DNA of 64,000 bases from NCBI GenBank assembly GCA_037134915.1, contig JBAXLJ010000002.1, positions 192,935-256,934 of the forward strand. Reading direction: 5' to 3'. Source of the DNA: Candidatus Falkowbacteria bacterium (GTDB lineage: Bacteria; Patescibacteriota; Patescibacteriia; Patescibacteriales; UBA12465). The notes beneath the pieces were generated by a model. It saw only the letters and a program-made list of their open reading frames with translations. It was not told where the DNA came from and made no database searches. The stretch's first letter is position 1, and every line of letters starts with the position of its first letter. The position numbers were made by a program, and so were the translations under genes. Positions 8,014-64,000 of the stretch are shown here, in pieces.

Positions 8014-8781
8014 ATGGAAAAAGAAACTTTAACTTGGCGCAGCCCTAAAACAATTCTCCTGCTGTTAATTATTCTAGGAATTACGGCCACGATTGTCATC
8101 TCAATTTTAAGGGATCGAATTACTAATCAACAATTTAGGCAGGTGACTGTTACTGGGCAAGGTAAGATTTCTTATGAACCAGATTTAGCGATTGTGACTC
8201 TGGGTGTCCAAATTGATAAAGCGAAGACAGCGGATTTAGCTTTAAAACAATTAAACGATAAGATGGCTAAAATTATGGCCGCTGTTTATGCTAATAAAAT
8301 TCCGGAGGCGGATATTTCTACTTCAGTTTATTCCTTGTCACCGCAATATGATTACAAAGATAATGTTTCGGTTGTTTCCGGTTATAATGCTAATGAACAG
8401 TTGATTATTAAAGTTCGTAACTATGATAAGGATCAAAATAATTTAAACAAGATAATTTCGGTGGCCACCTTAGCCGGCGCCAATCAAGTTAGCGGTTTAG
8501 CTTTTGACGTCTCTAATGTTAATGATTTAAAACAAGCGGCCAGAATCAAAGCGATTGGCGATGCTAAGGCTAAAGCTCAAGTTTTGGCCACCGCGGCCGG
8601 AGTAAAACTCAAAGATATTTCCAGTTGGTATGAAAATGTTTTACAAGTGCCATCGCCAGTTTACGCCGCTGGTATCGGGGGCGGAGCTAGTGGTATGGGT
8701 GGCGGCGGTGGATTACCGCAAACGCCAAGCGGACTTAAGGAAATAATTATTGAAATGAACCTAACTTATAATTTAAAATAG
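8014..8781 (+). CDS. SIMPL (DUF541) domain protein
   Basis: N-terminal TM, then VTVTGQGKISYEPDLAIVTLGV and ARIKAIGDAKAKAQVLA. Gly-rich segment near the C-terminus. Confidence 0.8.
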   Translation: MEKETLTWRSPKTILLLLIILGITATIVISILRDRITNQQFRQVTVTGQGKISYEPDLAIVTLGVQIDKAKTADLALKQLNDKMAKIMAAVYANKIPEADISTSVYSLSPQYDYKDNVSVVSGYNANEQLIIKVRNYDKDQNNLNKIISVATLAGANQVSGLAFDVSNVNDLKQAARIKAIGDAKAKAQVLATAAGVKLKDISSWYENVLQVPSPVYAAGIGGGASGMGGGGGLPQTPSGLKEIIIEMNLTYNLK

Positions 8782-8789
8782 AAAGATAT

Positions 8790-8824
8790 AAAAAAGACCG
8801 AAATTACTCTCGGTCTCTTTTTTT
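8790..8824. terminator. Bidirectional terminator
   Basis: AAAAAAGACCG-aaattactct-CGGTCTCTTTTTTT between convergent genes. Confidence 0.75.
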
Positions 8825-9158
8825 ATTCGATAATTTTTTGTAAATCACTAAGGCTAATTGGTTTAGTGTGAAAATCGTCGCAGCCGACATTTAAGGCTCT
8901 TTTTCGGTCATCATGGTAAGCCGCTATCATAAAAATTTTGACGATTTCATTAAGAGCTCTTATTTCTTCAACTACTTTAAAACCGTCAATATTGTTTAAA
9001 TGAGAATTAATAATCACAAAGTCCGGTTGATGTTCAAAAAACATTTCTAAAGCGTCTTTGCCATCAGTGGTTGTAAAAAGATGATGGTTCATAAAAACTC
9101 TTTCATAATAACTCAGGGACACCGGGTCGCAATCAGCAATCAAAATTTTCTTTTTCAT
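8823..9158 (-). CDS. Stand-alone receiver (CheY-like) domain lacking the phospho-acceptor Asp
   Basis: KKILIADCD..., DFVIINSHLNNIDG and FHTKPIS align to CheY D12/13, D57 and K109. The D57 position is Asn and the T87 position is Ala. Confidence 0.8.
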   Translation of the reverse strand: MKKKILIADCDPVSLSYYERVFMNHHLFTTTDGKDALEMFFEHQPDFVIINSHLNNIDGFKVVEEIRALNEIVKIFMIAAYHDDRKRALNVGCDDFHTKPISLSDLQKIIE

Positions 9159-9268
9159 TTTTTAGGATTTTTAAGTTACGTTAAAGTGAATTATAATGAT
9201 TTTTTACCTTTTGTAAAGGCTCTGCCTACGGCTCATAATTAACAATTAACTAGCTCGGCCCCTGTTTA

Positions 9269-9297
9269 TTGGCAAATATTTTTACGTGTGATATAAT
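9269..9297 (+). promoter_or_regulatory. Sigma-70-type promoter of hup
   Basis: TTGGCA, a 17-nt spacer, then TGaTATAAT. This implies a ~125-nt 5' UTR containing a 12-bp hairpin (TTGAAAGTTTGT..ACAAATTTTCAA). Confidence 0.55.
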
Positions 9298-9427
9298 ACT
9301 CTTGTAAATAAAGGTTAATTGAAAGTTTGTATTTTAAAAACAAATTTTCAATTTAATAATTTAGGCAGAAGTGATTTTAATTATTTTTTTTAAAGAATAA
9401 TTATTTATTACAAAGCCCCATGCAACT

Positions 9428-9709
9428 ATGTCTAAAATGACAAAGGCTCAAATGGTAGCCAACTTAGCTGAAGCCACTGGCTATGCTAAGAAAGAAGTAG
9501 CAATGTTTTTAGAAACTATTGCTGAACTAACTTATAAAGAAGTTAAGAAGAATGGTGAATGCATCGTTCCTGGCTTCGGTAAATTAGTTAAAGCAAAAAG
9601 AAAAGCTCGTGAAGGCCGCAATCCAGCTACTGGCGAAACTATCAAAATCCCAGCTAAAACTGTGGTTAAGTTCCGTCTAGCTAAAGCGGTTAAAGATGCT
9701 GTTCTATAA
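9428..9709 (+). CDS. hup: DNA-binding protein HU
   Basis: 93 aa. GFGKLVKAKRKAREGRNPATGETIKIPAKTVVKFRLAKAVKD is the HU/IHF arm. Codon usage is biased in the way expected of a highly expressed gene. Confidence 0.95.
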   Translation: MSKMTKAQMVANLAEATGYAKKEVAMFLETIAELTYKEVKKNGECIVPGFGKLVKAKRKAREGRNPATGETIKIPAKTVVKFRLAKAVKDAVL

Positions 9710-31401: not shown

Positions 31402-32463
31402 TTAGATGACCATTTTGAATAAGTCATCTTTGTAATAACCATTAAGAGAATCTTTAATTTTATCTCTTAACTTGATGAATAAAATTCCTTCTTCGTAGGT
31501 ATCCATTTCTTCAGAGAAATTATCCAAACAGAAGATAAAAGAAGATTTAGTTTCAATAGCAGGCATGATATTGCTGCTTAGGATATTAATCATAATTTCC
31601 AGGTGCCCGAGATCGTTATAGGAAACTCGGAATTCATCGACTATTTGTTCATCATAACACCAGAGCCAAACTATTTTGCCATTTATCTTTGCGGCAATAT
31701 CTATCGTTTTATTCAAAATAGATTTATAGTTATCGTAAAAAAGTGAATTTGATAAATCAATTTTAACAGTAGTGTGCGTATAATCATCTTGTTTACTTCC
31801 TAGTCCGGAACAAATCGATTTAGATAATACCCCTGAAGGGTTATTAACAAAATAACCTAGCCATTTATCTATGGCAAGTTTGTGCCATTTACCATTTAGA
31901 TTATCAAGCCAGATCATTAGCGGTAGCGAAATTATTCCGATAAAGTAATAAGGACTAAATATAAAACCAAATAGTATTGCCGCTGCAAAAACCAGCAAAA
32001 GCAATGAGGTCCAGGTTGGTACATCGCTGGGCTTAGATCTAAAAAATCCTTTATTAACCTTAAGATAGGTTTCGCCTTCATCATTAAGTGGTCGGAAAAC
32101 AAAAAAACCTTTTTGCAACTCCAAAGAATTGAGTAAGAAGTTTTTTTCAATCACTACTTTTCCCGAATCTCCTTTGAAGCGTCTTTGATCGGAAAAGTGA
32201 TTTTTGATGTTTTTTCTAATTTCTTGCCAGTCTTCGAAGTCGATTCCTTCGGCAACGCGAATAATTGTACCGGAAACTTTGCCCAAAGATGATTCCTCGG
32301 CCCTAGATTTTAAATTTCCCAGGCATTCATCTTGAGTAGCCTGAAGTTTTCTTAGAAAATTTTTCATTGTTAAATAACTTTTTTTGTTTCCTACTCCTAT
32401 ATTTAAAGTCCCGTTCGGTTTTGGACTTGAGAAGAATCTAACATAATAATTGCTAAAAGTCAA
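31402..32463 (-). CDS. Hypothetical protein with central TM hairpin
   Basis: Long ORF with TM segments WTSLLLLVFAAAILFGFIF/YYFIGIISLPLMIWL. The ORF-track start overlaps the tRNA-Leu terminator, so the ATG at 32367 (MKNFLRKLQ..) is more likely. Confidence 0.55.
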   Translation of the reverse strand: MTFSNYYVRFFSSPKPNGTLNIGVGNKKSYLTMKNFLRKLQATQDECLGNLKSRAEESSLGKVSGTIIRVAEGIDFEDWQEIRKNIKNHFSDQRRFKGDSGKVVIEKNFLLNSLELQKGFFVFRPLNDEGETYLKVNKGFFRSKPSDVPTWTSLLLLVFAAAILFGFIFSPYYFIGIISLPLMIWLDNLNGKWHKLAIDKWLGYFVNNPSGVLSKSICSGLGSKQDDYTHTTVKIDLSNSLFYDNYKSILNKTIDIAAKINGKIVWLWCYDEQIVDEFRVSYNDLGHLEIMINILSSNIMPAIETKSSFIFCLDNFSEEMDTYEEGILFIKLRDKIKDSLNGYYKDDLFKMVI

Positions 32464-32499
32464 AAAACAGGCTTTTTAGAAGAAGCCTGCTTTTATCTG

Positions 32500-32583
32500 T
32501 GCCGCGGGAGGGAATCGAACCCTCATGATATCGCTACCACACGAGTTTGAGTCGTGCGCGTCTACCAATTCCGCCACCGCGGC
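32500..32583 (-). tRNA. tRNA-Leu (anticodon CAA), class II with long variable arm; CCA not encoded
   Basis: Reverse complement GCCGCGG-TG-GCGG-AATTGGTAGA-CGCG-CACGA-CTCAAAC-TCGTG-TGGTAGCGATATCAT-GAGGG-TTCGATT-CCCTC-CCGCGGC-A. A hairpin plus T-run follows at 32492-32462. Confidence 0.93.
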
Positions 32584-55511: not shown

Positions 55512-56273
55512 ATGATTAAAAAATTCTTACAGGATATTGGTTTAAATGAAAAAGAAGTCAGCATCTATTTGGAATTGCTCCGAGTTGATAATAACTCAGT
55601 TTTAGATTTGGCCAAGAAGACTGGTATTTTGCGAACTTCGATTTATTCCATTATTGAATCATTAAAAGAGAAGGGCTTGGTTTCCGAAATTGAAGTTGGC
55701 AAGAAAATTAATTTCCAAGCAGAACCGCCAGAAAGAATTGCGGCCTTTATTGAATCACAGCGATTAAAAGTTGAAGAACAGTCTCAACTGGCTAATGAAT
55801 TTATTCCGCAGCTTCGAAGTTTGTCCCGTCAAACTGGAGAAAAACCAGTGGTTAAAGTTTATGAAGGGCGCGAAGGTATCTTCAAGGCTAACGAAGAATC
55901 ATTCGGATACGGAAAATCAAACCAAAATGACACTGCTTACTTTATCTACCCTTACGATTTAATTGAAAATCTATTTTCTGGACAGGAAATAAAAAAATCC
56001 AGTACACAGCGAATTAATCGCCGCATTAAATCACGAGCTATTTATACTTATTCTAAGGGCGACCGACCTAAAAGCGAAGACTCTATCAGATTAAAAATAG
56101 ACGGCCAAAAATATCCGATTAAGTGCGATATCAGCATCTTTAAAGATATGATTCGCATCCACACCTTAGGCAAATCTCTTTCGTCTTTAGTGATAAAAAG
56201 TCAAGATATCGCTGACACTCTTAAGTCTTTATTTGAAGCTGTCTTTGATAGTCAAAAAAAGCTTGAAAAATAA
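55512..56273 (+). CDS. TrmB-like HTH transcriptional regulator
   Basis: N-terminal wHTH LGLNEKEVSIYLELLRVDNNSVLDLAKKTGILRTSIYSIIESLKEKGLV. Confidence 0.7.
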   Translation: MIKKFLQDIGLNEKEVSIYLELLRVDNNSVLDLAKKTGILRTSIYSIIESLKEKGLVSEIEVGKKINFQAEPPERIAAFIESQRLKVEEQSQLANEFIPQLRSLSRQTGEKPVVKVYEGREGIFKANEESFGYGKSNQNDTAYFIYPYDLIENLFSGQEIKKSSTQRINRRIKSRAIYTYSKGDRPKSEDSIRLKIDGQKYPIKCDISIFKDMIRIHTLGKSLSSLVIKSQDIADTLKSLFEAVFDSQKKLEK

Positions 56274-56532
56274 AAAAAGGGTCGCCTGCTTGTGCAAACG
56301 ACCCCATTACCAAAATTAAAACTTTTTTCGATTAGCCCCTCTAAGGAGCTTCATTAAAATTTTCCAGAAAACAAATTTTTTTAATCACCCACTTTCGGCC
56401 TCCTTTCTTAAAAATTAAATTTACAAATCACTATAAGAGACATAAGACCCACTTAGGGCGAAGGTGGCGCTGATGCAGCACCAACCTTCGTTAAGTTTTA
56501 GTCTTGCATGGCTCCTCCTTTTTTAAGTTGTT
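56272..56532 (-). ncRNA. Candidate ~260-nt non-coding transcript (promoter-to-terminator unit without ORF)
   Basis: Minus-strand promoter at 56567-56539. Minus-strand terminator GGGTCG-n14-CGACCC plus TTTTTTT (56304-56272). Internal hairpin CGAAGGTTGG..CCACCTTCG. Two strong AGGAGG motifs, each followed by a 3-codon mini-ORF. The longest ORF is ~14 codons. Confidence 0.4.
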
Positions 56533-56538
56533 GCTAAG

Positions 56539-56567
56539 AATCTAACATATAAAAAAATTATTGTCAA
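56539..56567 (-). promoter_or_regulatory. Sigma-70-type promoter (minus strand)
   Basis: TTGACA (56567-56562), a 17-nt spacer, then TAGATT (56544-56539). Confidence 0.45.
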
Positions 56568-56803
56568 TATTATTATTAAAACGTTTTATTTTAAATACAG
56601 AAAATATTTTAATATTAAACAAAAAAACTAGTAAAGCGGTTACTACGTCAAAAGTTTTCCACAGATATAGCGATAGTTTCTAATATTTTTTAATTTTTTG
56701 GTTATTTTTATAAAAGAGTTTATAATTTAAAACATTTTATTTTATACAAAGTCCTATTAATTAGGCCTTTTTTATTATCTATAATTAAAAGTGACAAATA
56801 CTA

Positions 56804-56832
56804 TTGACAAATATTTAGATATAATCTAGACT
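56804..56832 (+). promoter_or_regulatory. Promoter-like element upstream of the structured leader
   Basis: TTGACA (56804-56809), a 17-nt spacer, then TAGACT (56827-56832). A TATAAT at 56820-56825 has the wrong spacing. Ambiguous in AT-rich DNA. Confidence 0.35.
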
Positions 56833-56861
56833 CTCTTTACGAGTTATTTTGGTTCTTTTTA

Positions 56862-57133
56862 AAAGGCTTAATGCAGTTGCTAATACAAACGGAGTATTAG
56901 CATAGCCTTTCGAGCACGTGATTATTAGCTATCTTAAGCAAAAGCATATCCGTCTTGCCGAGCTCGCCGAGCTACAAGTATGATAATGCGACGGGATACC
57001 CCCAATTTAAGGGGGTGCAGGGAAAAGCCCTGCTAGTTCGAAAAATCGACATAAAAGTCGAAAACTGTTTGGGGCAATTTTTCGAAATTGCCCCTCAACT
57101 CTAGTTTCTAAATACTTGGAAACTGAAGTTGAG
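56862..57133 (+). promoter_or_regulatory. Highly structured non-coding leader (seven consecutive hairpins) upstream of the 57160 operon
   Basis: Hairpins at 56862-56910, 56947-56998, 56999-57015 (CCCCC/GGGGG), 57017-57033 (GCAGGG/CCCTGC), 57046-57061, 57071-57094 (10 bp + UUCG loop) and 57095-57133. None is followed by a U-tract. Confidence 0.5.
56928..56973 (+). repeat. Tentative diverged copy of the 28-nt tRNA-end-like element
   Basis: ..CTATCTTA[agcaaaagca]TATCCGTCTTGCCGAGCT compared with copy C CAATCTTATCCCTGTCTCCGAGCA. CCGAGCT is duplicated (56958-56964 and 56967-56973). Confidence 0.25.
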
Positions 57134-57159
57134 TTTGAACCTTTAAAATTAAATATAAG

Positions 57160-57774
57160 ATGAAAAAGAAAGTTAAACGCCCGGAACTGAAAGATTTATT
57201 TTGCGATCAAATAAATCAGTTGCTAAAGCTCGGCTATCCATCTGAGATTATCAGCCGTTTTAAATCTAAAGAAACTGATTTACTAGATGTTTGCGAGAAC
57301 TTAGATTTTTTAGAAGAACAAACACCCTTTATGCCGGTGGTGCCTGAAAAAGTTTTAGCTTATCGCGATCAAGCGAGTCTTGTCTCTAAAATGCCTTATC
57401 TTAAAAACACTTTAGATGTTCGAGGCTGGCGCCATCATTTACTGGAGAAACTTCAAAATACCTATATTCCAAATTTTTCCAGCCAACCCTATTACCTTGT
57501 TGGAGTAGTTATAGCCGAGGAACCCGAATTAAACGGTCTTTTAAAAATAAATCATGAGGAAGGATTTGCAATCACCGCTTTAAAACCAGAGCTGTTAAAA
57601 CATCAACGAATGCTAGCCGCTACGGCCTGCGATTGGGAAGGTGACGAAACAGCCGTGATTCATTTAACGGTCTTAGAAGCGGGCTTTAACGAATATTATA
57701 TTGCCGCTGATTGGCGCACCGCCAAAAGATGTCAGAACCTCTCTTATGGTTTTTGCCAAAGTAGATTAATCTAA
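57160..57774 (+). CDS. Hypothetical protein (204 aa), no recognised domain
   Basis: Long ORF following the structured leader. First of three co-oriented genes. Confidence 0.55.
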   Translation: MKKKVKRPELKDLFCDQINQLLKLGYPSEIISRFKSKETDLLDVCENLDFLEEQTPFMPVVPEKVLAYRDQASLVSKMPYLKNTLDVRGWRHHLLEKLQNTYIPNFSSQPYYLVGVVIAEEPELNGLLKINHEEGFAITALKPELLKHQRMLAATACDWEGDETAVIHLTVLEAGFNEYYIAADWRTAKRCQNLSYGFCQSRLI

Positions 57775-57801
57775 AAAATCAAACCACTAAAACACTACCA
57801 G

Positions 57802-58302
57802 ATGAAAGCATTATTTATTTTGATTATTAGTCTTATGTCCTTCTTTTCGCTAAATTCTTTAGCTGATGATAACAAGGCTTTCTTAGAAAGTTTTGTTAAG
57901 ACCGTTAAATTAAATGAGCACCGGTTTCAGGACATCAATTTAGTTTATCCGGGGGACACGGTCATGGTTGTTGGCAAGGGGATTACTCCAATTGCAATCT
58001 TGCCAAGAGATAGCTTACCTGGTTATCATGATTGCGTTTGGTACGCGGTCAAGCGCTCTCTAAGACAAAGCAACGGGGTTCCAAAGTTAAAACCGCTTAT
58101 AAATAAAATTGATGAAAAAATTAATTTTAATTTATCAGATTTTATTAAAGATAACCCGGCTTTAATAATTACCTCTTTACTGGCAGGGATTTTTCTATTG
58201 CTACTTTTATTAATAATACTGATGGCCGTAAGAAGGCCGATAATTATTAATAATAATTTATCCTGTCATCATCCGCCAACCGTACCACCGACCACGGTTT
58301 AA
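57802..58302 (+). CDS. Hypothetical exported, C-terminally anchored protein
   Basis: Signal peptide MKALFILIISLMSFFSLNSLA. C-terminal TM ALIITSLLAGIFLLLLLLIILMAV and a Pro-rich tail. A 10-bp hairpin without a U-tract follows (58310-58334). Confidence 0.55.
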   Translation: MKALFILIISLMSFFSLNSLADDNKAFLESFVKTVKLNEHRFQDINLVYPGDTVMVVGKGITPIAILPRDSLPGYHDCVWYAVKRSLRQSNGVPKLKPLINKIDEKINFNLSDFIKDNPALIITSLLAGIFLLLLLLIILMAVRRPIIINNNLSCHHPPTVPPTTV

Positions 58303-58368
58303 GATAAATCCGGGACTCACAAACTGAGTCCCGGTAAATTATTCATTTTCATCTAAACAATAGTAATA

Positions 58369-59166
58369 ATGGAAAAATTCAGAATTTTAGTAATCGATGA
58401 TAAAATAGCTAATTTAGAAGCGGCCGAAAAACAGTTTGCCGAAAAAAACGTTGAATTAATTGTGATGGGGACCTATGCCGGAGCTGTCTACTTTATTAAC
58501 AATGAACATTTCGATATCGTCCTGTCAGATTTAATGTTGCCAGGAGATGACGAGGGTATAAGTTGTAACAACCCGGAAATTGGTCAAGATGTGCCTTATG
58601 GTTTATTGCTAGCCATCCTCGCCAAAAATAGAGGCGTGGAAAAAGTGGCCATTTTAACCGATATCAGTCATCATGCGGGACCAATTGCCTGGTCAATGGA
58701 CAAACTTATGGGTATTAATCCTTTTGTTAGCTGCTTTAGTCATAAAAATTGGTTAGAAGTGGCTTCAAAATTTGTTGAGATAGGATCTGTTTCCGCTGAA
58801 ACTGAGGTACCATTTCACACGCCAACCGTTTTATTAGCCGGCCACGGTGATGATTTTAAAAGAAGTATTCAAAAAGAGATTTCAAGTAAATTTAAAGTAA
58901 TTTTTATTGAAGAGGAGTCTAATTTTGCCAGAACTTTTAATCGATTCATTGGTTATAAGCCGAATTTTACTATAATTGTTGGCGAGATAACCAAGGAACT
59001 GAAGGAAAGCAGCTTGAATATCGGGCGTATTTTTAAAGATTTGCAAGGTGTAAAAACTTCGGAACAGAAAGTTTTTGCTCTAGGTTTTTTGCCTCATAAT
59101 CATCCCGATTATGTCCAGCTGCCGCTTAGTATTAGCGAGATTCTAACACGAACCGGTTTAGTATAA
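58369..59166 (+). CDS. Receiver-domain protein with uncharacterised C-terminal half
   Basis: FRILVIDDK.. and FDIVLSDLMLPG show an intact acidic pocket and phospho-acceptor Asp. The C-terminal ~130 aa (TVLLAGHGDD..KVIFIEEE..FTIIVGE) may be a second degenerate flavodoxin-like domain. No output domain recognised. Confidence 0.7.
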   Translation: MEKFRILVIDDKIANLEAAEKQFAEKNVELIVMGTYAGAVYFINNEHFDIVLSDLMLPGDDEGISCNNPEIGQDVPYGLLLAILAKNRGVEKVAILTDISHHAGPIAWSMDKLMGINPFVSCFSHKNWLEVASKFVEIGSVSAETEVPFHTPTVLLAGHGDDFKRSIQKEISSKFKVIFIEEESNFARTFNRFIGYKPNFTIIVGEITKELKESSLNIGRIFKDLQGVKTSEQKVFALGFLPHNHPDYVQLPLSISEILTRTGLV

Positions 59167-59177
59167 ATTTTAAAGTA

Positions 59178-59206
59178 AGCGCCAGCAAAAAGTTGGTGCT
59201 TTTTTT
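59178..59206 (+). terminator. Rho-independent terminator
   Basis: AGCGCCAGC-aaaaa-GTTGGTGCT (two G-U pairs) plus TTTTTT. Confidence 0.7.
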
Positions 59207-59218
59207 ATAAGCGGCAGC

Positions 59219-59247
59219 TTGAATAATCTTTTTTTAAATGCTATAAA
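59219..59247 (+). promoter_or_regulatory. Promoter of tRNA-Gln
   Basis: TTGAAT, a 17-nt spacer, then TGcTATAAA. It lies ~20 nt upstream of the tRNA 5' end. Confidence 0.5.
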
Positions 59248-59266
59248 TAAAAGCGTATTAAATCAT

Positions 59267-59337
59267 TCGGGGATCGTCTAATGGTAGGACTCAAGCCTCT
59301 GAAGTTTGCTATCTTGGTTCGAATCCAAGTCCCCGAG
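59267..59337 (+). tRNA. tRNA-Gln (anticodon CUG); CCA not encoded
   Basis: Acceptor TCGGGGA/TCCCCGA with U1-A72 and discriminator G, as in bacterial tRNA-Gln. Anticodon stem CAAGC/GTTTG with loop CTCTGAA. T arm CTTGG-TTCGAAT-CCAAG. Confidence 0.9.
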
Positions 59338-59350
59338 CAAAACACAAAAT

Positions 59351-59375
59351 CAGGCTTTAAAAGCCTGTTTTTGTT
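59351..59375 (+). terminator. Terminator of tRNA-Gln
   Basis: CAGGCTT-taa-AAGCCTG plus TTTTTGTTT. Confidence 0.75.
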
Positions 59376-59473
59376 TGAATATTAGATATATTTTAAGTTC
59401 AAACGTGGTTCGAACATTTTTTGGATATTTATGTCATTTTATAGAAAACCCCCGATTTTATTGGCCTATATTA

Positions 59474-59489
59474 GTTCGAATCCCGTTCC
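59474..59489 (+). repeat. Degenerate T-loop-like fragment (GTTCGAATCCCGTTCC)
   Basis: Matches the tRNA T-loop region but lacks the CCGAGCA end. A second fragment, GGTTCGAAC, lies at 59407-59415. Confidence 0.35.
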
Positions 59490-59510
59490 TATTATTTTGA
59501 AATTAAATCA

Positions 59511-59519
59511 TGCTATAAT
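59511..59519 (+). promoter_or_regulatory. Extended -10 element TGCTATAAT (leaderless geometry)
   Basis: The -10 ends 8 nt before the ATG at 59528. Confidence 0.45.
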
Positions 59520-59527
59520 ACTAAAAT

Positions 59528-60259
59528 ATGAGTAAAAGAGAACTAAAAAATGTAACATTATTAGGCATTGACTGTGTCGATGTTGAGAGACTTAGATTGG
59601 CAGTGAGTATTTGTCAAAACAATTTTGAGTTTGCAGAAGTTAAAATTCTAACTTCTTTAGATGTGGCTTATAAAGAAAATGTTGTTAAAATAAAAGCTAT
59701 AAACTCGACTGAAGAATATTCCAATTTTATAATTAATGATCTTTGGGGATATATCAACACGTCTCATGTCCTACTAGTTCAATATGATGGTTTTATACTC
59801 AACCCTGAAGCCTGGACTGATGAATATTTAGATTACGATTATATTGGCGCACCTTGGTTAGTAGCTGACTGGTCAGTTACTAATTTTTCCTTCCCTCAAG
59901 AACTAGTTGGAAAATTTGTAGTTGGCAATGGTGGCTTTAGTTTAAGAAGTAAAAAGATTTTAGCACTAACATCGCAATTATCTAAAACTGGAAAAATCGC
60001 TAAGTTACACCCAGAAGATGTTTCTATTTGTGTTTGGTATCGGCAACTTTTTGAGGATGAGGGGATAAAATTTGCACCCCTTACCTTAGCAAAAAAATTT
60101 AGTTTTGAATCAGAGGATAAAGATAATTATTTTTGGGATGGACAATTTGGTTTTCACGGTCTTAAATGGACCGATATATCAAAATGGGCCAAAATACACC
60201 CTGAATATAAAATAGATAATCCGGCGATTGCGAAGAGTGAAAGATTAAAATGGCTATAA
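59528..60259 (+). CDS. DUF5672-like protein (putative glycosyltransferase-like fold)
   Basis: LLVQYDGFILNPEAW..YDYIGAPW..VGNGGFSLRSKKI resembles the DUF5672 pattern as I recall it. Needs an HMM check. Confidence 0.55.
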   Translation: MSKRELKNVTLLGIDCVDVERLRLAVSICQNNFEFAEVKILTSLDVAYKENVVKIKAINSTEEYSNFIINDLWGYINTSHVLLVQYDGFILNPEAWTDEYLDYDYIGAPWLVADWSVTNFSFPQELVGKFVVGNGGFSLRSKKILALTSQLSKTGKIAKLHPEDVSICVWYRQLFEDEGIKFAPLTLAKKFSFESEDKDNYFWDGQFGFHGLKWTDISKWAKIHPEYKIDNPAIAKSERLKWL

Positions 60260-60768
60260 AAAGTATGAAAATAAAATTAGACGAGAAAGTAATGTCCGGA
60301 CTCCGCTGGATAGTCACTATTCTGGATAGAAATAAAATACCCTATAAGATTGGTGGCGGTTTTGCTGCTAAAGTTTATGGTTCGCCCAGAGAAGTGAACG
60401 ACATCGACATATCTCTCTCTGGTGAATATTTTGATATGATTGTTTCTGAAGTTTCTGATTATATCACGGCTGGGCCAAAGCATTATCTAAATGAAAAATG
60501 GGATTGCAATACTTTATCGGTGAATTATCAAGGGCAAGATATTGACATGACAGACGTTGATACTTTAAAAATGACTAATTTAGAAAAGACTGAATGGTTT
60601 AATGTTAAAGAAAAGAGGTTATATGATGGCATTATTACGGATATTAATGGGGTTGCCGTTTCCATAATGGATCCTCGTGATCTTATTTCATATAAAAAAT
60701 TACTAGGAGGAGAGCACCAACAAATTGATGTTGATGCTATTCAGATCTATTTAGATAAAAATGTTTAG
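60250..60768 (+). CDS. Minimal nucleotidyltransferase-fold protein (Lnu/ANT(2'')-like family)
   Basis: IPYKIGGGFAAKVYGSPREVNDIDISL carries the G-[GS]-x(9-13)-D-x-D pattern of Pol-beta-type NTases. Overlaps the upstream gene by 10 nt (ATGGCTATAA). Confidence 0.6.
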   Translation: MAIKSMKIKLDEKVMSGLRWIVTILDRNKIPYKIGGGFAAKVYGSPREVNDIDISLSGEYFDMIVSEVSDYITAGPKHYLNEKWDCNTLSVNYQGQDIDMTDVDTLKMTNLEKTEWFNVKEKRLYDGIITDINGVAVSIMDPRDLISYKKLLGGEHQQIDVDAIQIYLDKNV

Positions 60769-60856
60769 TATTATTAAGAATTACCAGGATTAAGGAGAAG
60801 TGCTTTTTAAATCAGTGGATTGAGCCCCTAATTCTCATCTAATCTTAGCCACACTA

Positions 60857-60884
60857 GTTCGAACTTCGTCCACGACCCCGAGCA
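60857..60884 (+). repeat. 28-nt tRNA-3'-end-like element, copy B
   Basis: GTTCGAACTTCGTCCACGACCCCGAGCA, followed by the hairpin AATAGCAC-gttta-GTGCTATT plus TTTGTT (60894-60919). Confidence 0.7.
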
Positions 60885-60916
60885 CGTTGACAAAATAGCA
60901 CGTTTAGTGCTATTTT

Positions 60917-60925
60917 TGTTATAAT
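60917..60925 (+). promoter_or_regulatory. Extended -10 element TGTTATAAT
   Basis: Directly after the copy-B hairpin, 26 nt upstream of the ATG at 60952. Confidence 0.5.
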
Positions 60926-60951
60926 AAAAAGAAAATTAACAATTTAAATAT

Positions 60952-61281
60952 ATGACTATGAAAATTTTTAATAAGTTAGTAAGGGATAAAATTCCTGAAA
61001 TAATAGAGGCAGAAAATAAAATTCCTAAAATAAAAATTTTGAGTAACGATGAATATAAATTAGAACTACTCAAAAAATTAGTCGAAGAATCTAAAGAAGT
61101 CTTGGAAGCTAAAGATGATAAAGAAGATTTGATTAAAGAACTAGGAGATTTATTGGAGGTAATAGACTCCACTGTTAAAACTTTTAGTCTTAATTTAGAA
61201 GACATCTTAGTTTTAAAGGATAAAAGAAAACAAGAGAGAGGCGGATTCGATAAACAAATTTTCTTAGAAAGCGTTGAATAA
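60952..61281 (+). CDS. MazG-like/PRA-PH-like nucleoside triphosphate pyrophosphohydrolase
   Basis: KLVRDKIPEIIE.., ELGDLLEVI and ERGGFDKQIFL match the all-alpha NTP-PPase family. 109 aa. Confidence 0.75.
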   Translation: MTMKIFNKLVRDKIPEIIEAENKIPKIKILSNDEYKLELLKKLVEESKEVLEAKDDKEDLIKELGDLLEVIDSTVKTFSLNLEDILVLKDKRKQERGGFDKQIFLESVE

Positions 61282-61319
61282 TAACTAGGGGCATATATTT
61301 GCCTCTTTTTCATAAAAAA

Positions 61320-61347
61320 GTTCCAATCTTATCCCTGTCTCCGAGCA
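61320..61347 (+). repeat. 28-nt tRNA-3'-end-like element, copy C
   Basis: GTTCCAATCTTATCCCTGTCTCCGAGCA, followed by the hairpin ATAAGCT-attact-AGCTTAT plus TTTTTGTT (61357-61384). Confidence 0.8.
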
Positions 61348-61479
61348 CTAATAAAAATAAGCTATTACTAGCTTATTTTTTGTTGGATAGAGTAATCAAA
61401 ATATTTCTAAATGGTGATATATTTTAGCTAATATTCATATAAATAGTAGCTGTTCCAAAGTAAGATATGTATCTATATA

Positions 61480-61508
61480 TTGACATATATTATAAAATAT
61501 GATATTAT
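61480..61508 (+). promoter_or_regulatory. Sigma-70-type promoter of module 3
   Basis: TTGACA, a 17-nt spacer, then TGaTATTAT. Homologous to the promoter at 62218. Confidence 0.5.
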
Positions 61509-61625
61509 TTAATCATTAAAATAGAACACTAACAAACAAGATTAGATTTGATTAATCACCGAATTCATCTAAAAAGGTGTGTTTAGTAATTAATCAAATA
61601 TATTAATCTTTAAAATAAAAGAAAA

Positions 61626-62075
61626 ATGGAAGCACTCAGTTGTAATTTTTCAGACGTAGTTATTAATAGCTACAAAAATAATGTTCATAAAATGCAGAAC
61701 ATTCCTGATACTGGCTTTAATGAAGCTACTCAAGGAAGTTTTAATTTTATTGGCATTATTGCTCATAGCGGTATCGTTGGTGATAGTGATGATTTATTAT
61801 TACTTGACCCAGAGATTAGTCAAAAGTTAAATGATTTTGACGTCTGCGTTGAGATTCTGTATCAACTCGGAAAACTCACAGGAAAAAATTTCTCTAGTTG
61901 GCAAGAAGCTCTGATTGATTCTGATTATTATCAGAAAGGTCAGTTGATGATTTTGCAAAGACATTTTTCTCCAGTGGTTTGGACAGGCAAAACAATCCTT
62001 TGCTCTCCAAACGATAAATTAATTCAATACGCAATTCAACGCGTAAATGAAGTAAGGGAAAGAAGAAATAGATGA
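61626..62075 (+). CDS. Hypothetical protein (149 aa)
   Basis: ORF with its own promoter and a long 5'-UTR hairpin (61546-61599). No motif recognised. Confidence 0.5.
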   Translation: MEALSCNFSDVVINSYKNNVHKMQNIPDTGFNEATQGSFNFIGIIAHSGIVGDSDDLLLLDPEISQKLNDFDVCVEILYQLGKLTGKNFSSWQEALIDSDYYQKGQLMILQRHFSPVVWTGKTILCSPNDKLIQYAIQRVNEVRERRNR

Positions 62076-62145
62076 GAATAAACATTCTTCATCAAGAAGC
62101 CTCATAGCTATATTAGTTATCGGGGTTTTTTATTGTCCAAAAACC

Positions 62146-62173
62146 GTTCCAATCTTATCCCAGTCTCCGAGCA
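62146..62173 (+). repeat. 28-nt tRNA-3'-end-like element, copy D
   Basis: GTTCCAATCTTATCCCAGTCTCCGAGCA (27/28 identical to copy C), followed by ATAGACT-aatttt-AGTCTAT plus TTTTTGTTTT (62184-62213). Confidence 0.8.
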
Positions 62174-62217
62174 TAAACATTAAATAGACTAATTTTAGTC
62201 TATTTTTTGTTTTAGTA

Positions 62218-62246
62218 TTGACATATTTATATATTTATGATATAAT
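62218..62246 (+). promoter_or_regulatory. Consensus sigma-70 promoter of module 4
   Basis: TTGACA, a 17-nt spacer, then TGaTATAAT. Confidence 0.6.
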
Positions 62247-62287
62247 TATCCTGTTATTAATTAGTACATTAACTAAAAAAATAAAAA

Positions 62288-62566
62288 ATGAAAGTTGAAG
62301 TCATAATTTCAGTCCCAGAATTAAAGATGTCTTTTTCAAGGGAAATGGATCTATCTTTAGTATTTGTTGGTCACATTATTGCTTTATCTGGACTCGGTTG
62401 TCTGGTTATTAATGAAACCATGGAATCCAATTTTGATGGGGAAGGTAAGAGTGGCCAATTAATAGCTTTTGTTTCAATGGAAAAAGAAATAAAAGAGGCA
62501 TATTTAGCTGGAGGAGCAAAAAAAGCAATAAATATGTTTGCTAATTTTAAATTCGTCGCTAATTGA
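62288..62566 (+). CDS. Hypothetical small protein (92 aa)
   Basis: ORF between a consensus promoter and a terminator (AGAGTA..TACTCT plus T-run, 62585-62615). Confidence 0.45.
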   Translation: MKVEVIISVPELKMSFSREMDLSLVFVGHIIALSGLGCLVINETMESNFDGEGKSGQLIAFVSMEKEIKEAYLAGGAKKAINMFANFKFVAN

Positions 62567-62631
62567 ATTCACTTATTGTTAAAAAGAGTAAATCTGAATA
62601 ATCAGGTATACTCTTTTTTATTTTTAAAATA

Positions 62632-62666
62632 GTTCCAATTTATTGACTTAAAGAAGTTCTGAGACC
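62632..62666 (+). repeat. Degenerate copy E of the tRNA-end-like element
   Basis: GTTCCAATTTATTGACTTAAAGAAGTTCTGAGAC shares the GTTCCAAT start and a TCTGAGAC end, compared with TCTCCGAGCA in copy C. Confidence 0.35.
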
Positions 62667-62711
62667 TTTATCTGTTTTTAAAATATTAGTTATCATATAT
62701 AATAAATTCAT

Positions 62712-63923
62712 ATGACTAATTTATACAGACAAACAGAAGAATTTGTTGATAAAGTTACTGGTGGAAGTCCGCATTTAGAAAGAACTACTTTTTGGCTACA
62801 AAAATTAAAACCAGATGCTAGCGAGGCCCTGTTAATTGCTGCTAGAAGCCATGATATTGAGCGAGCTTTTCGCGATGGTAATTATGATAAAATAACCAAC
62901 TCAGATAAGGGTTATCAAAGTGAGGAACATTTATCTTATCATCAAGCCAAAGGAGCCGAAATTATGTCTAAATTTTTAAAAGAGAAAGGGGCTGATAGGG
63001 TATTAATTCATAAAGTATCAGAACTTATAGCTAATCATGAAGTTGGCGGAGACGATGATCAAAATTTAATAAAAGATGCTGATAGTTTAAGTTTCTTTGA
63101 AAATAATGTAGAACTATTTTTAAAAGAGCAGATTAAAAAGACTAATAAAGAAAAAGTAAGAGATAAGTTTAATTGGATGTTTAATAGAATTACTAGTAAG
63201 CGAGCTAAAGATTTAGCTCGTCCATTTTTTGAAGACGCTATTAAAAAGTTAGACTCTACAAAGAAACGCATAGCAATATTCTCACATGGATTTGGAGTTC
63301 GAAAAGACGATTTAGGCTTACTTAGCAGTATTGCCGAAGCGATGCCTGAGGTAGAATCAATATTATTTGATTATTTTGAAATAAATGAGAAGGAAAATAT
63401 AATGTCTATTTGCCCTCTCAGCTCTCAAGTTGAGAGGTTAAACACGGTTATCAGCAAGGCTAAAATAGCTAATCCTGGAGCTGTCATTGATTTAATCTGC
63501 CATTCCCAAGGAACAATTGTGGCGGCTATGGCAAAGCCAGTAGGAATTAGAAAAACAATACTTCTTGCCCCTGTATTTGATATGAGCCTGGAGAGAACAC
63601 TGGCACGATATCGTTCAAAATCTGATGCCATAATAAATCTTGAAGGAATATCAAAAATTCCATCTTCGAGTGGTTTGACCAGAATTATACCAAAAGAATA
63701 TTGGCAGGAACGTTTAGCTGTAAAACCTTTTATTGAATATAATGCATTCGCGAAGAAAACAGAAATAATTGCTATTGAGGCTAATCAAGATCAATTATTA
63801 TCTAAAGTTGATTTAAAAGAACTAGATTCAGAAATACAAATGTTATCAATTGATGGTGATCATAATTTTAATGATTTGGCGCGAGAACCTTTAATTAAAG
63901 TTATAAAAGATTTGTTAAGATAA
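62712..63923 (+). CDS. Fusion protein: N-terminal HD-domain phosphohydrolase plus C-terminal alpha/beta-hydrolase (serine hydrolase)
   Basis: HD part: SPHLERT, ARSHDIERAF, ANHEVGG, KDADSLSF. Hydrolase part: IAIFSHGFG (oxyanion), LICHSQGT (nucleophile elbow), IDGDHNF (His). The TATAAT at 62698-62703 ends 8 nt before the ATG. Confidence 0.7.
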   Translation: MTNLYRQTEEFVDKVTGGSPHLERTTFWLQKLKPDASEALLIAARSHDIERAFRDGNYDKITNSDKGYQSEEHLSYHQAKGAEIMSKFLKEKGADRVLIHKVSELIANHEVGGDDDQNLIKDADSLSFFENNVELFLKEQIKKTNKEKVRDKFNWMFNRITSKRAKDLARPFFEDAIKKLDSTKKRIAIFSHGFGVRKDDLGLLSSIAEAMPEVESILFDYFEINEKENIMSICPLSSQVERLNTVISKAKIANPGAVIDLICHSQGTIVAAMAKPVGIRKTILLAPVFDMSLERTLARYRSKSDAIINLEGISKIPSSSGLTRIIPKEYWQERLAVKPFIEYNAFAKKTEIIAIEANQDQLLSKVDLKELDSEIQMLSIDGDHNFNDLAREPLIKVIKDLLR

Positions 63924-63927
63924 TATT

Positions 63928-64000
63928 ATGAATATTCCGATAAAAAAATTAAATAGTGGTTTTGAAATACCAGTTCTTGGTTTTGGTACTTGGCTTATGG
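63928..64000 (+). CDS. Aldo/keto reductase (N-terminal fragment, runs off the window)
   Basis: MNIPIKKLNSGFEIPVLGFGTW matches the AKR N-terminal signature. Confidence 0.6.
   Translation, partial: MNIPIKKLNSGFEIPVLGFGTWLM

What the first reader, a model, noticed from the sequence alone, without database searches (positions are those of the whole stretch)
59267..62700. tRNA-Gln-anchored array of self-contained gene modules separated by a recurring element resembling the tRNA 3' end plus its terminator
Seen in sequence. Five short plus-strand modules follow tRNA-Gln(CUG): 59528-60768, 60952-61281, 61626-62075, 62288-62566 and 62712-63923. The same composite element recurs at their junctions. 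It consists of a 28-mer resembling the tRNA T-loop/acceptor 3' end, about 10 nt, then a small hairpin plus TTTTTGTT that copies the layout of the tRNA's own terminator.
- tRNA: GTTCGAATCCAAGTCCCCGAGCA (59317-59339), then CAGGCTT-taa-AAGCCTG-TTTTTGTTT.
- Copy B (60857-60884): GTTCGAACTTCGTCCACGACCCCGAGCA, then AATAGCAC-gttta-GTGCTATT-TTTGTT.
- Copy C (61320-61347): GTTCCAATCTTATCCCTGTCTCCGAGCA, then ATAAGCT-attact-AGCTTAT-TTTTTGTT.
- Copy D (62146-62173): GTTCCAATCTTATCCCAGTCTCCGAGCA, then ATAGACT-aatttt-AGTCTAT-TTTTTGTT.
C and D differ at 1 of 28 positions, and B matches C at 19 of 28. All end in CCGAGCA like the tRNA. Degenerate copies lie at 59474-59489 and 62632-62666, and possibly at 56928-56973 upstream of the tRNA. 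The promoters after C and D are also homologous (TTGACATAT..TATGATAT[T/A]AT). Every module has its own promoter and terminator.
Established knowledge: tRNA 3' ends are classical att sites, and integrating elements carry a surrogate 3' end, so serial integration leaves displaced copies downstream.
Inference: these units are only 0.3-1.3 kb, no recombinase is present in the 4.7 kb after the tRNA, and the terminator is copied along with the att-like core. The locus therefore resembles a cassette array served by a trans-acting recombinase, integron-like in logic but with a tRNA-derived site and promoter-bearing cassettes. I am not aware of such an arrangement having been described.
Basis: partly seen in the sequence, partly recalled or inferred. 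Interest (0 to 1): 0.8.

Follow-up and report, generated by a model that had tools for sequence, protein, structure and literature searches.

The report
Serine-recombinase gene-cassette array behind tRNA-Gln
Behind a glutamine tRNA gene of a tiny-genome (Patescibacteria) bacterium lies a row of small self-contained gene cassettes, each ending in a recombination site used by a family of large serine recombinases, so this locus works as a gene-swapping hotspot.

Summary
The tRNA-Gln(CUG) gene and the three 28-mers are exactly where stated, and chance does not explain them. The same 28-mers occur in more than 80 contigs, mostly from Patescibacteria. They fall into two types, T1 and T2, and always lie downstream of and co-oriented with tRNA-Gln, or occasionally tRNA-Asn, in arrays of up to about 7 sites.

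Homology between genomes breaks exactly at the ...GAGCA end of the sites. One 1.8-kb cassette is 99.3-99.5% identical in two unrelated contexts. The window's own 149-aa cassette recurs elsewhere with other neighbours.

The recombinase is a large serine recombinase (LSR). In autonomous relatives, which also carry a rolling-circle Rep gene, the LSR is encoded antisense and its last codons run through the site. A syntenic relative of the window has an intact LSR overlapping tRNA-Gln.

The 28-mers have the T-loop-like motif exactly 5 bp further from the crossover than the tRNA does. This is the documented attP-versus-attB geometry of LSRs.

The locus is therefore an accretion array of LSR elements and their miniature, recombinase-less derivatives. 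The derivatives are probably mobilised in trans, which is inferred, not shown. It resembles SCC composite islands and tycheposon islands more than an integron. No LSR lies in the window, and no activity was demonstrated.

The parts
59267..59338 (+). tRNA-Gln(CUG), the anchor of the array. Its 3' end (59317-59339, GTTCGAATCCAAGTCCCCGAGCA) is the attB-type left half-site, with a 23-nt span from GTTCGAA to GAGCA.
   Evidence: ARAGORN; Rfam 58.1 bits. A 23-nt span is found in all 20 unique tRNA ends across loci.
59340..59505 (+). Alpha leader of cassette 1: terminator hairpin at 59351-59367 plus TTTTTGTTT, then T-arm-like remnants (GGTTCGAAC; AGTTCGAATCCCGTTCC at about 59473-59489). This conserved unit of about 175 nt follows tRNA-Gln, tRNA-Asn or the 28-mers in many genomes.
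   Evidence: Alignment A2; nhmmer E=6e-44; terminator scan.
59340..60884 (+). Cassette 1 (1545 bp): alpha leader, DUF5672 gene (59528-60259), nucleotidyltransferase-like gene (60250-60768), and a T1 site.
   Evidence: Pfam. A DUF5672 + T1 homologue is present in L021.
60812..60884 (+). T1 site, made of a conserved arm plus 28-mer B (60857-60884). This is the attP-type half-site. Its antisense reading is LGVVDEVRTSVAKIR*, a remnant of an LSR gene 3' end.
   Evidence: nhmmer E=2e-20; antisense translation; tblastn with LSR_L070 residues 490-511.
60885..61347 (+). Cassette 2 (463 bp): leader hairpin at 60894-60914 plus T-run, overlapping a promoter-like site at 60887-60916; MazG/PRA-PH-like gene (60952-61281); terminator at 61287-61306; T2 site C (61320-61347).
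   Evidence: The same leader precedes a different gene after tRNA-Asn in L009.
61348..62173 (+). Cassette 3 (826 bp): leader hairpin at 61357-61376, promoter at 61480-61508, 149-aa gene (61626-62075), T2 site D (62146-62173).
   Evidence: Found at 85-92% identity in L090-L093 with different neighbours; homology ends at the T2 3' end, 62172/62173.
62174..62666 (+). Cassette 4 (about 493 bp): leader hairpin at 62184-62203, promoter at 62218-62246, 92-aa gene (62288-62566), terminator, and decayed T2 site E (62632-62666).
   Evidence: Site E aligns with a decayed T2 in L068.
62667..64000 (+). Cassette 5 onwards: promoter, then a 403-aa DUF4202/HD plus hydrolase-like gene (62712-63923). It continues beyond the window.
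   Evidence: 91% identity to L068 starting at 62667; Pfam; downstream genes in L001.

Best explanation
The locus is a tandem accretion array of integrative elements that use a Patescibacteria family of large serine recombinases (LSRs). These LSRs target the extreme 3' end of tRNA-Gln.

The sites. The tRNA end GTTCGAA-N9-CCCCGAGCA is the attB-type left half-site. Each element carries an attP-type half-site, the 28-mer. It comes in two types, T1 and T2, and has the same T-loop-like motif placed 5 bp further from the crossover. The crossover lies inside the last 5 nt, GAGCA, so the tRNA is never damaged.

The autonomous elements. These are about 7 kb or more and carry the LSR plus a rolling-circle Rep gene. 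The LSR is encoded antisense, and its last 15-20 codons run through attP. This is why the 28-mer and the T1 arm read as an LSR C-terminus.

Integration. Integration puts the element's leader right after the tRNA. The leader is a hairpin plus T-run and supplies a new terminator. Integration leaves the 28-mer at the far end of the element.

The window. It contains only miniature, LSR-less derivatives of 0.46-1.5 kb. Each has a leader/terminator, its own promoter, one or two cargo genes and a terminal 28-mer.

Shown: the sites, their geometry, the exact breakpoints, and the LSR association.

Inferred: that the mini-cassettes are still moved by an LSR supplied in trans, that the hairpins act as terminators, and that arrays grow by re-use of the tRNA junction.
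For: Site distribution:
- The sites are non-random and confined to this array within the window.
- The same two site types occur in 25 genome loci and 58 metagenome loci.
- 37 of 37 T1/T2 sites in loci that hold a tRNA-Gln or tRNA-Asn are co-oriented with it and downstream of it. Inter-site distances are 415-9912 bp, median about 1 kb.

Exact breakpoints:
- L008 5643-7456 and L018 2794-981 align at 99.3-99.5% identity. The segment is bounded on the left by ...GCGAGCA| and on the right by ...CCCCGAGCA|, and the flanks are unrelated.
- L061 and L065 are 99.9% identical over 6.5 kb. The left break sits at CCCCGAGCA, a T1 site in one and the tRNA in the other. The right break comes exactly after a T1 site.
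- The cassette that follows tRNA-Asn in L009 is 99% identical to a cassette that follows a T1 site in L065.
- Window cassette 3 recurs with other neighbours, and its homology ends at the T2 3' end.

The recombinase:
- Pfam finds Resolvase + Recombinase + Zn_ribbon_recom in antisense ORFs that run through T1 sites in L066, L070 and L072, and partly in L051. A Rep gene lies adjacent.
- L068 holds a 190-aa LSR C-terminal remnant (64% identity, 1e-74) abutting tRNA-Gln.
- L086 is syntenic with the window (LysRS, GreA, Wzy, glycosyltransferases). Its intact LSR (507-2045) overlaps tRNA-Gln(CTG) (1985-2056) on the opposite strand. L087-L089 show the same arrangement.
- The family has more than 1500 homologues. 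In most of the 120 tails listed, the C-terminus carries the DSNP-type motif expected from antisense reading of a tRNA T-arm (...MLGDRDSNPD......RRGRDSNP...). The motif script itself labelled 9 as tRNA-Gln-like; the rest is my reading of the printed tails.

Geometry:
- The span from GTTC.AA to GAGCA is 28 nt in 93 unique non-tRNA sites and 23 nt in 20 tRNA ends.
- This matches the documented shift of the zinc-ribbon-domain (ZD) motif 5 bp toward the centre in attB relative to attP (PMC3783163).

Hairpins:
- 108 of 124 unique sites are followed by a hairpin plus T-run within 55 nt, against 336 of 2000 random windows.
Against: - No LSR is encoded in the 64-kb window or in the 10 kb downstream. 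The rest of the source genome could not be examined.
- No LSR was found whose native tail is clearly T2-type, yet C and D are T2 sites.
- Canonical LSRs recombine only attP with attB. Growth of an array at the tRNA needs the tRNA::leader junction, formally an attL, to be accepted as a target. This is not known for phage LSRs.
- The right half-sites (the leaders) show no shared sequence beyond the hairpin layout.
- Most comparative loci are metagenome contigs, where repeats can cause chimeric joins.
- No circular intermediates or empty sites were observed.
Confidence: 0.8

Rival explanations
1. This is classical serial integration by a tyrosine integrase. The 28-mers would then be displaced, decayed copies of the tRNA-Gln 3' end (ordinary attR direct repeats), and the integrase genes would simply have been lost.
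For: tRNA 3' ends are classical att sites (established knowledge). The last 9-16 nt of the 28-mers match the tRNA end.
Against: - The 5-nt longer spacing is invariant: 93 of 94 non-tRNA sites.
- The 28-mers fall into two discrete, highly conserved sequence types across distant genomes. Random decay would not give this.
- A phmmer screen with XerD and a catalytic-motif screen found no tyrosine recombinase in 651 ORFs from the related loci or in the window and L001 ORFs.
- LSR genes physically overlap the sites.
Confidence: 0.05
2. This is an integron-like platform in the strict sense. A dedicated resident recombinase would capture promoter-bearing cassettes at the tRNA end, acting as attI, through structured attC-like sites formed by the 28-mer plus hairpin.
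For: Arrays of co-oriented single-gene cassettes carry a conserved 3' site. No recombinase lies in most arrays. The hairpin after each site conserves structure but not sequence.
Against: - No IntI-like gene is present.
- The cassette boundary lies after GAGCA, not at G|TT of a GTTRRRY box.
- No R''/L''/L'/R' symmetry is visible.
- The recombinase that overlaps the sites is an LSR carried by mobile LSR-Rep elements, not a fixed chromosomal gene next to the array. In different genomes the gene upstream of the tRNA is LysRS or other housekeeping genes.
Confidence: 0.07
3. No site-specific mobility is operating now. The 28-mers and leaders would be fossil repeats, and cassettes would be exchanged between genomes by transformation and homologous recombination within these repeats. 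Alternatively, the apparent shuffling is chimeric metagenome assembly at repeats.
For: Repeats of 70-250 nt (T1 plus alpha) flank many cassettes. The same leader precedes different genes. The Logan assembly of the window's own sample breaks inside the array.
Against: - Breakpoints coincide with the last 5-9 nt of the site even where the two partners share only about 9 nt on one side, as with tRNA against T1 in L061/L065.
- They also coincide where the downstream leaders are unrelated, as in L008/L018.
- The pattern recurs in many independent assemblies and MAGs.
Confidence: 0.08

Closest known systems
Staphylococcal cassette chromosome (SCC) composite islands: SCCmec, pseudo-SCC and ACME at rlmH, moved by Ccr large serine recombinases
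   Same: - The recombinase is a large serine recombinase.
- Integration is at the extreme 3' end of one conserved housekeeping gene, which stays intact.
- Elements lie in tandem, each bounded by a short repeated site.
- Recombinase-less members sit beside recombinase-bearing ones and are thought to be mobilised in trans (10.1101/336396; the rest from my own knowledge).
   Different: - The target is a tRNA-Gln gene, not rlmH.
- The hosts are Patescibacteria.
- Cassettes are 10-100 times smaller (0.4-1.5 kb, often one gene).
- attP lies inside the recombinase's own C-terminal coding region.
- The autonomous form carries a rolling-circle Rep gene.
- Orthology to Ccr was not tested.
Tycheposons and tycheposon-derived genomic islands of Prochlorococcus (10.1101/2020.12.28.424599)
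   Same: - The elements target tRNA genes and carry integration and replication modules.
- Successive integrations push older elements further into the island.
- The islands hold degenerate elements, fragmented integrases and partial-tRNA sites.
- The host genomes are streamlined and have few other mobile elements.
   Different: - 910 of 937 of those elements use tyrosine recombinases; here all are LSRs.
- Their repeats are partial tRNAs; here the repeat is an attP-type mimic with a 5-bp shifted motif.
- Here single-gene cassettes with their own promoters dominate the arrays.
SSV-type ('suicidal') archaeal integrases with attP inside the int gene
   Same: The recombination site lies within the recombinase ORF, and the target is a tRNA gene, so integration changes the recombinase gene (PMC8371274).
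   Different: - Those are tyrosine recombinases. The review calls the arrangement exclusive to archaea.
- Their gene is split and inactivated. Here only the last 15-20 codons are exchanged for a similar tail read from the antisense tRNA, so the LSR probably stays functional.
Integrons and CALINs (attC clusters lacking an integrase)
   Same: Arrays of co-oriented small cassettes, each ending in a conserved recombination site. The recombinase is often absent from the array. Cargo is accessory or defence-type.
   Different: - The enzyme is a serine recombinase, not a tyrosine recombinase.
- The sites look like double-stranded att half-sites, not folded attC.
- Cassettes carry their own promoters and terminators.
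- The anchor is a tRNA gene, not attI with a Pc promoter.
CIMEs (cis-mobilisable elements) formed by accretion with ICEs in streptococci
   Same: These are att-bounded elements that lack their own integrase. They arise by decay and are mobilised with or by a related autonomous element (from my own knowledge).
   Different: Those systems use tyrosine integrases and conjugative elements, and the elements are much larger.

Membership tests
Large serine recombinase (serine integrase) att system | A recombinase with Resolvase catalytic domain + Recombinase domain + zinc-ribbon domain is associated with the sites. | tested here: met
   Pfam hits for L066, L070 and L072, partial for L051. Intact LSRs overlap tRNA-Gln in L086-L089. 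None is found inside the window itself.
Large serine recombinase (serine integrase) att system | The attP half-site is about 5 bp longer than the attB half-site, with the zinc-ribbon-domain (ZD) motif shifted 5 bp toward the centre in attB. | tested here: met
   The GTTC.AA-to-GAGCA span is 28 nt in 93 element sites and 23 nt in 20 tRNA ends. The rule is documented in PMC3783163.
Large serine recombinase (serine integrase) att system | The crossover occurs at a 2-bp central dinucleotide identical in both partners. | tested here: inconclusive
   Breakpoints map to the last 5-7 nt, GAGCA, which tRNA-Gln, tRNA-Asn, T1 and T2 all share. The dinucleotide itself could not be resolved.
Large serine recombinase (serine integrase) att system | Both half-sites of attP and attB are recognisable, with quasi-symmetry. 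| tested here: not met
   The leaders (right half-sites) share only an A-rich stretch, hairpin and T-run layout. I saw no inverted copy of the left half-site.
Large serine recombinase (serine integrase) att system | Recombination activity is demonstrated and a directionality factor is identified. | not testable with these tools
   This needs in vivo or in vitro assays.
Integron | An IntI tyrosine recombinase lies next to attI and a Pc promoter. | tested here: not met
   No tyrosine recombinase signal in 651 ORFs of the related loci or in the window and L001 ORFs. The genes upstream of the tRNA are housekeeping and vary between genomes.
Integron | attC sites have R''/L''-L'/R' symmetry, and the crossover is at G|TT of GTTRRRY. 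| tested here: not met
   The boundary lies after GAGCA, 21 nt or more downstream of GTTC, and GTTCGAA does not fit GTTRRRY.
Integron | Cassettes are mostly promoterless. | tested here: not met
   Sigma-70 promoter matches of 10-12 out of 12 follow B, C and D.
SCC elements | Integration is at the 3' end of rlmH (orfX) by CcrAB or CcrC. | tested here: not met
   The target here is tRNA-Gln or tRNA-Asn. Ccr orthology was not tested.
SCC elements | Tandem elements are each bounded by a repeated integration-site sequence, and some members lack a recombinase. | tested here: met
   Array maps. The LSR-Rep element in L070 sits among LSR-less cassettes.
SSV-type integrase with attP inside its own gene | attP lies within the recombinase ORF, and the target is a tRNA gene. 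| tested here: met
   LSR ORFs read through the T1 site or through the tRNA 3' end.
SSV-type integrase with attP inside its own gene | The enzyme is a tyrosine recombinase, and its gene is fragmented and inactivated on integration. | tested here: not met
   The enzyme is a serine recombinase. Integrated copies remain full length at about 500-512 aa, with only the tail exchanged.

The most novel reading that the evidence does not exclude
Patescibacteria possess a true cassette-exchange system built on a large serine recombinase. The tRNA::leader junction would stay competent as a target after every insertion, so only the left half-site distinguishes attB from attP. An LSR supplied in trans by LSR-Rep elements could then repeatedly insert and excise minimal promoter-bearing cassettes at the tRNA-Gln 3' end. 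This would be a functional analogue of the integron that evolved independently from a different recombinase superfamily. It would also relax the canonical rule that LSRs recombine only attP with attB.
Probability: 0.4. Interest if true: 0.8.

Novelty: new variant of a known kind. Interest (0 to 1): 0.65.

Why it matters
Patescibacteria (CPR) have tiny genomes, and little is known about how they exchange genes. This work identifies a widespread locus in them, a site and an enzyme family (more than 1500 homologues) that together explain a hypervariable region behind tRNA-Gln. Its cargo includes nucleotide-housekeeping genes and defence-type genes.

Mechanistically it offers three things:
- A natural data set of more than 100 sites that displays the 5-bp attP/attB zinc-ribbon-domain (ZD) motif shift of serine integrases.
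- A bacterial serine-recombinase counterpart to archaeal integrases that carry attP inside their own gene.
- Arrays that seem to need recombination at a formal attL, which is testable.

These LSRs and their short, well-defined sites could also be candidates for genome-engineering toolkits.

Tried and rejected
- **Known RNA family.** Rfam at gathering score on the whole window, and at E<=1 on 56200-62800, found nothing at the 28-mers, the leaders or the 56.3-57.2 kb spacer. I also looked by eye for tRNA-like or other pairing in the T1 arm and saw no covariation.
- **Phage origin.** The 28-mer pattern has 0 matches in viral contigs.
- **Tyrosine or Xer recombinase.** There were no tyrosine hits. 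The serine motif found the first two LSRs.
- **Batch Pfam scan of 116 locus ORFs**. It was of limited use because only the 25 commonest families are listed.
- **Integron attC features.** Rejected on boundary position and motif.
- **Alpha leader as a decayed LSR 3' end.** Only the first roughly 20-40 nt look similar. nhmmer with the alpha profile gave no hit in the LSR-bearing loci L066 and L072, although it did hit L070 outside the LSR gene. The origin of alpha therefore stays open. Other leaders are demonstrably LSR remnants: L068 with 190 codons, and L016 where a 52-aa match spans the T1 site and about 30 leader codons.
- **Upstream copy at 56928-56973.** No profile hit.
- **Literature.** Searches for a prior description of this system found none.

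Full report
**1.

ARAGORN and Rfam place tRNA-Gln(CTG) at 59267-59338.
- B, 60857-60884
- C, 61320-61347
- D, 62146-62173

A degenerate pattern covering B, C and D, with up to 3 mismatches allowed, finds only these three sites in 64 kb. Shuffles give 0.00 expected. The 16-mer TCCNNGNCYCCGAGCA hits only the tRNA 3' end and B, C and D, against 0.05 expected.

Each site is followed by an A-rich stretch, a perfect 7-8 bp hairpin and a T-run. Strong sigma-70-like promoters follow B, C and D. GC content drops after the tRNA.

When MAFFT aligns the tRNA end with the 28-mers, it places one 5-nt gap right after GTTCGAA.

**2. The sites are widespread and always arranged the same way**

One scan of the genome collection found 25 loci. 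One scan of the metagenome collection found 58 loci. Nearly all are Patescibacteria contigs.

There are two discrete site types:
- T1 is B-like, GTTCGAACTTCGTCCACGACCCCGAGCA, with about 45 nt of conserved upstream "arm".
- T2 is like C and D, GTTCCAATCTTATCCCAGTCTCCGAGCA, and is preceded by a terminator and an A-run.

Profile searches plus ARAGORN show arrays of up to about 7 co-oriented sites:
- L049: a tRNA followed by six T2 sites.
- L065, L061, L070 and L074: similar arrays.

All 37 T1/T2 sites that share a locus with a tRNA-Gln or tRNA-Asn lie downstream of it on the same strand. Distances between sites are 415-9912 bp, with a median of about 1 kb. In L009 and L019 the anchor is tRNA-Asn.

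**3. The sites are cassette boundaries**

Homology between loci breaks at the last bases of the sites.
- L008 and L018 share a DHH + NUDIX segment of about 1.8 kb at 99.3-99.5% identity. It starts right after ...GCGAGCA and ends exactly at ...CCCCGAGCA. Both flanks are unrelated.
- L061 and L065 are 99.9% identical over 6.5 kb. On the left this block follows a T1 site in L061 and the tRNA itself in L065, and identity starts at CCCCGAGCA. On the right the two diverge immediately after a T1 site.
- The cassette after tRNA-Asn in L009 is 99% identical to one after a T1 site in L065.
- The window's own cassette 3, the 149-aa gene, occurs at 85-92% identity in L090-L093 with other neighbours (Fic/RhuM, peroxiredoxin, DUF6671). 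Its homology ends at the T2 3' end.
- The window's 403-aa gene block is 91% identical to L068, starting at 62667, directly after the decayed site E.

Together these comparisons place the crossover within the final 5-7 nt. GAGCA is the only part shared by tRNA-Gln, tRNA-Asn, T1 and T2.

**4. The recombinase is a large serine recombinase**

Cargo genes in the arrays are accessory:
- Nucleotide-related: DUF5672, a nucleotidyltransferase, MazG-like, NUDIX, DHH, pyrophosphatase.
- Transport: a Na/Ca exchanger.
- Defence-type: Shedu, Fic, SMODS/SLATT and restriction-modification genes.

Screens found no tyrosine recombinase.

A serine-recombinase motif led to antisense ORFs that read straight through T1 sites. 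Pfam confirms Resolvase + Recombinase + Zn_ribbon_recom in L066, L070 and L072, and partly in L051. A rolling-circle Rep gene (REP_ORF2-G2P/RepSA) lies next door.

In L070 this 7.0-kb LSR-Rep element sits as one unit among small cassettes.

The antisense reading of T1 is LGVVDEVRTSVAKIR*. That of T2 is LGDWDKIGTFL*. The T1 and T1-variant tails match the C-terminal tails of these LSRs. This explains why the T1 arm is conserved.

L068 is a relative of the window. It keeps a 190-aa LSR C-terminal remnant (64% identity, 1e-74) abutting tRNA-Gln.

A database search found more than 1500 homologues, named only "recombinase family protein" and mostly from Patescibacteria. In most of the 120 tails listed I read the DSNP-type motif that antisense translation of a tRNA T-arm gives (...MLGDRDSNPD......RRGRDSNP...). 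The motif script itself labelled 9 as tRNA-Gln-like.

L086 has the same neighbourhood as the window: L31, polysaccharide genes, Wzy, GreA and LysRS. It carries an intact LSR whose 3' end overlaps tRNA-Gln(CTG) on the opposite strand. L087-L089 are the same, and L088 and L089 also carry the Rep gene.

**5. The geometry fits serine integrases**

Across unique contexts, the span from GTTC.AA to GAGCA is 28 nt in 93 non-tRNA sites and 23 nt in 20 tRNA ends. There is one exception, at 26 nt.

Rutherford et al. showed that the zinc-ribbon-domain (ZD) motif sits 5 bp closer to the central dinucleotide in attB than in attP, and that attB is about 10 bp shorter overall (PMC3783163).

The tRNA end therefore behaves as an attB-type half-site and the 28-mers as attP-type half-sites. 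This explains the 5-nt difference that first looked like an odd insertion.

**6. How it most likely works**

An LSR-Rep element recombines its attP with the tRNA 3' end at GAGCA. The attP consists of the 28-mer plus the leader, and it lies inside the LSR's own 3' coding end.
- The tRNA stays intact.
- The element's leader hairpin and T-run become the terminator behind the tRNA. 87% of sites have such a hairpin, against 17% of random windows.
- The 28-mer ends up at the distal end of the element.

Repeated events and internal deletions leave LSR-less mini-cassettes. Each has a terminator, a promoter, cargo and a 28-mer. Decay intermediates are visible in L068 and L016.

Near-identical cassettes in different arrays argue that the mini-cassettes still move, using an LSR supplied in trans. 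That step is inferred, not shown.

Open problems:
- Canonical LSRs do not use attL as a target, yet tRNA-proximal differences between arrays (L061 against L065) seem to need this.
- The right half-sites lack a common sequence.
- No LSR with a T2-type tail was found.
- The window's genome could not be searched for an LSR beyond about 74 kb.

**7. Comparison with known systems, and verdict**

The closest analogues are SCC composite islands, tycheposon islands and CIMEs.
- SCC composite islands share the LSR, a housekeeping-gene 3' end as target, and recombinase-less pseudo-elements in tandem.
- Tycheposon islands share the tRNA anchoring, successive integrations and remnants.

Having attP inside the recombinase gene recalls SSV-type archaeal integrases. 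A review calls that arrangement exclusively archaeal. Here, however, only the tail is swapped and the enzyme is a serine recombinase.

The integron features were tested and are not met: no IntI, no attC, and the cassettes are not promoterless.

I found no paper describing this system.

Verdict: the feature is real and widespread. The site's origin, the enzyme and the degree of novelty needed correction. I rate it a new variant of a known kind, with interest of about 0.65.

Noticed in passing
L019:1032-1328: The tRNA-Asn(GTT) gene is interrupted in its anticodon loop by a group I intron of about 227 nt (Rfam Intron_gpI, 109.7 bits, L019 1055-1281). ARAGORN missed this tRNA. It still anchors a cassette that ends in a T1 site.
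   Followed up: yes
window:56274-57160: This non-coding spacer of about 890 nt is unusually long for such a compact genome. It contains several strong nested hairpins, for example 56865-56912, CCCCCaatttaaGGGGG and GCAGGGaaaaGCCCTGC. Rfam finds nothing at E<=1. In relatives (L013, L018, L086) LysRS lies next to tRNA-Gln or one gene away. The 3.7 kb between LysRS and the tRNA in the window (TrmB-like gene, this spacer and three ORFs) may therefore be an insertion.
   Followed up: partly
window:59340-59505 (and alignment A2): The alpha leader contains what looks like a truncated tRNA-Gln 3' half with attB-type spacing (consensus TCAATATTGGTTCGAATCCACGTCCTGTTTTT), lacking CCGAGCA. It also holds a second GGTTCGAAC motif. 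The origin of this unit of about 175 nt is unexplained. It is repeated up to 3 times in one array (L008).
   Followed up: partly
window:61439-61466: The Logan assembly of SRR12676973 carries this locus on two contigs. They break within the leader of cassette 3, between site C and its promoter. This may reflect repeat-induced or strain-level cassette variation in the source sample.
   Followed up: no
L066:4300-5409; L094:549-2465; L090:151-1119 and 8288-9558; L092:3593-4570: Arrays and neighbouring regions in other genomes carry defence-type cargo: Shedu SduA_C, SMODS/AGS_C + SLATT (CBASS-like), Fic/RhuM, and N6_N4 methylase + ICEA. These loci may therefore double as defence islands.
   Followed up: no
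P0001-P0120 (LSR homologues): Sub-groups of the LSR family have different antisense-tRNA tails, for example ...RRGRDSNPGSTFTDDSFQDCSIRPLWHLS. This suggests that sister lineages target the 3' ends of other tRNAs, including long-arm tRNAs.
   Followed up: no
L088:4393-5259: A Y1_Tnp (IS200/IS605-type) transposase gene lies inside the LSR-Rep element of L088. The otherwise near-identical L089 has a shorter ORF without that Pfam hit at the same position.
   Followed up: no
window:25287-25656 and 32499-32583: A bacterial class A RNase P RNA scores 226.9 bits. A tRNA-Leu(CAA) gene has a downstream terminator with the same layout as the tRNA-Gln terminator (A-rich stretch, hairpin, T-run), giving a faint alpha-profile hit at 32416-32494.
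   Followed up: no
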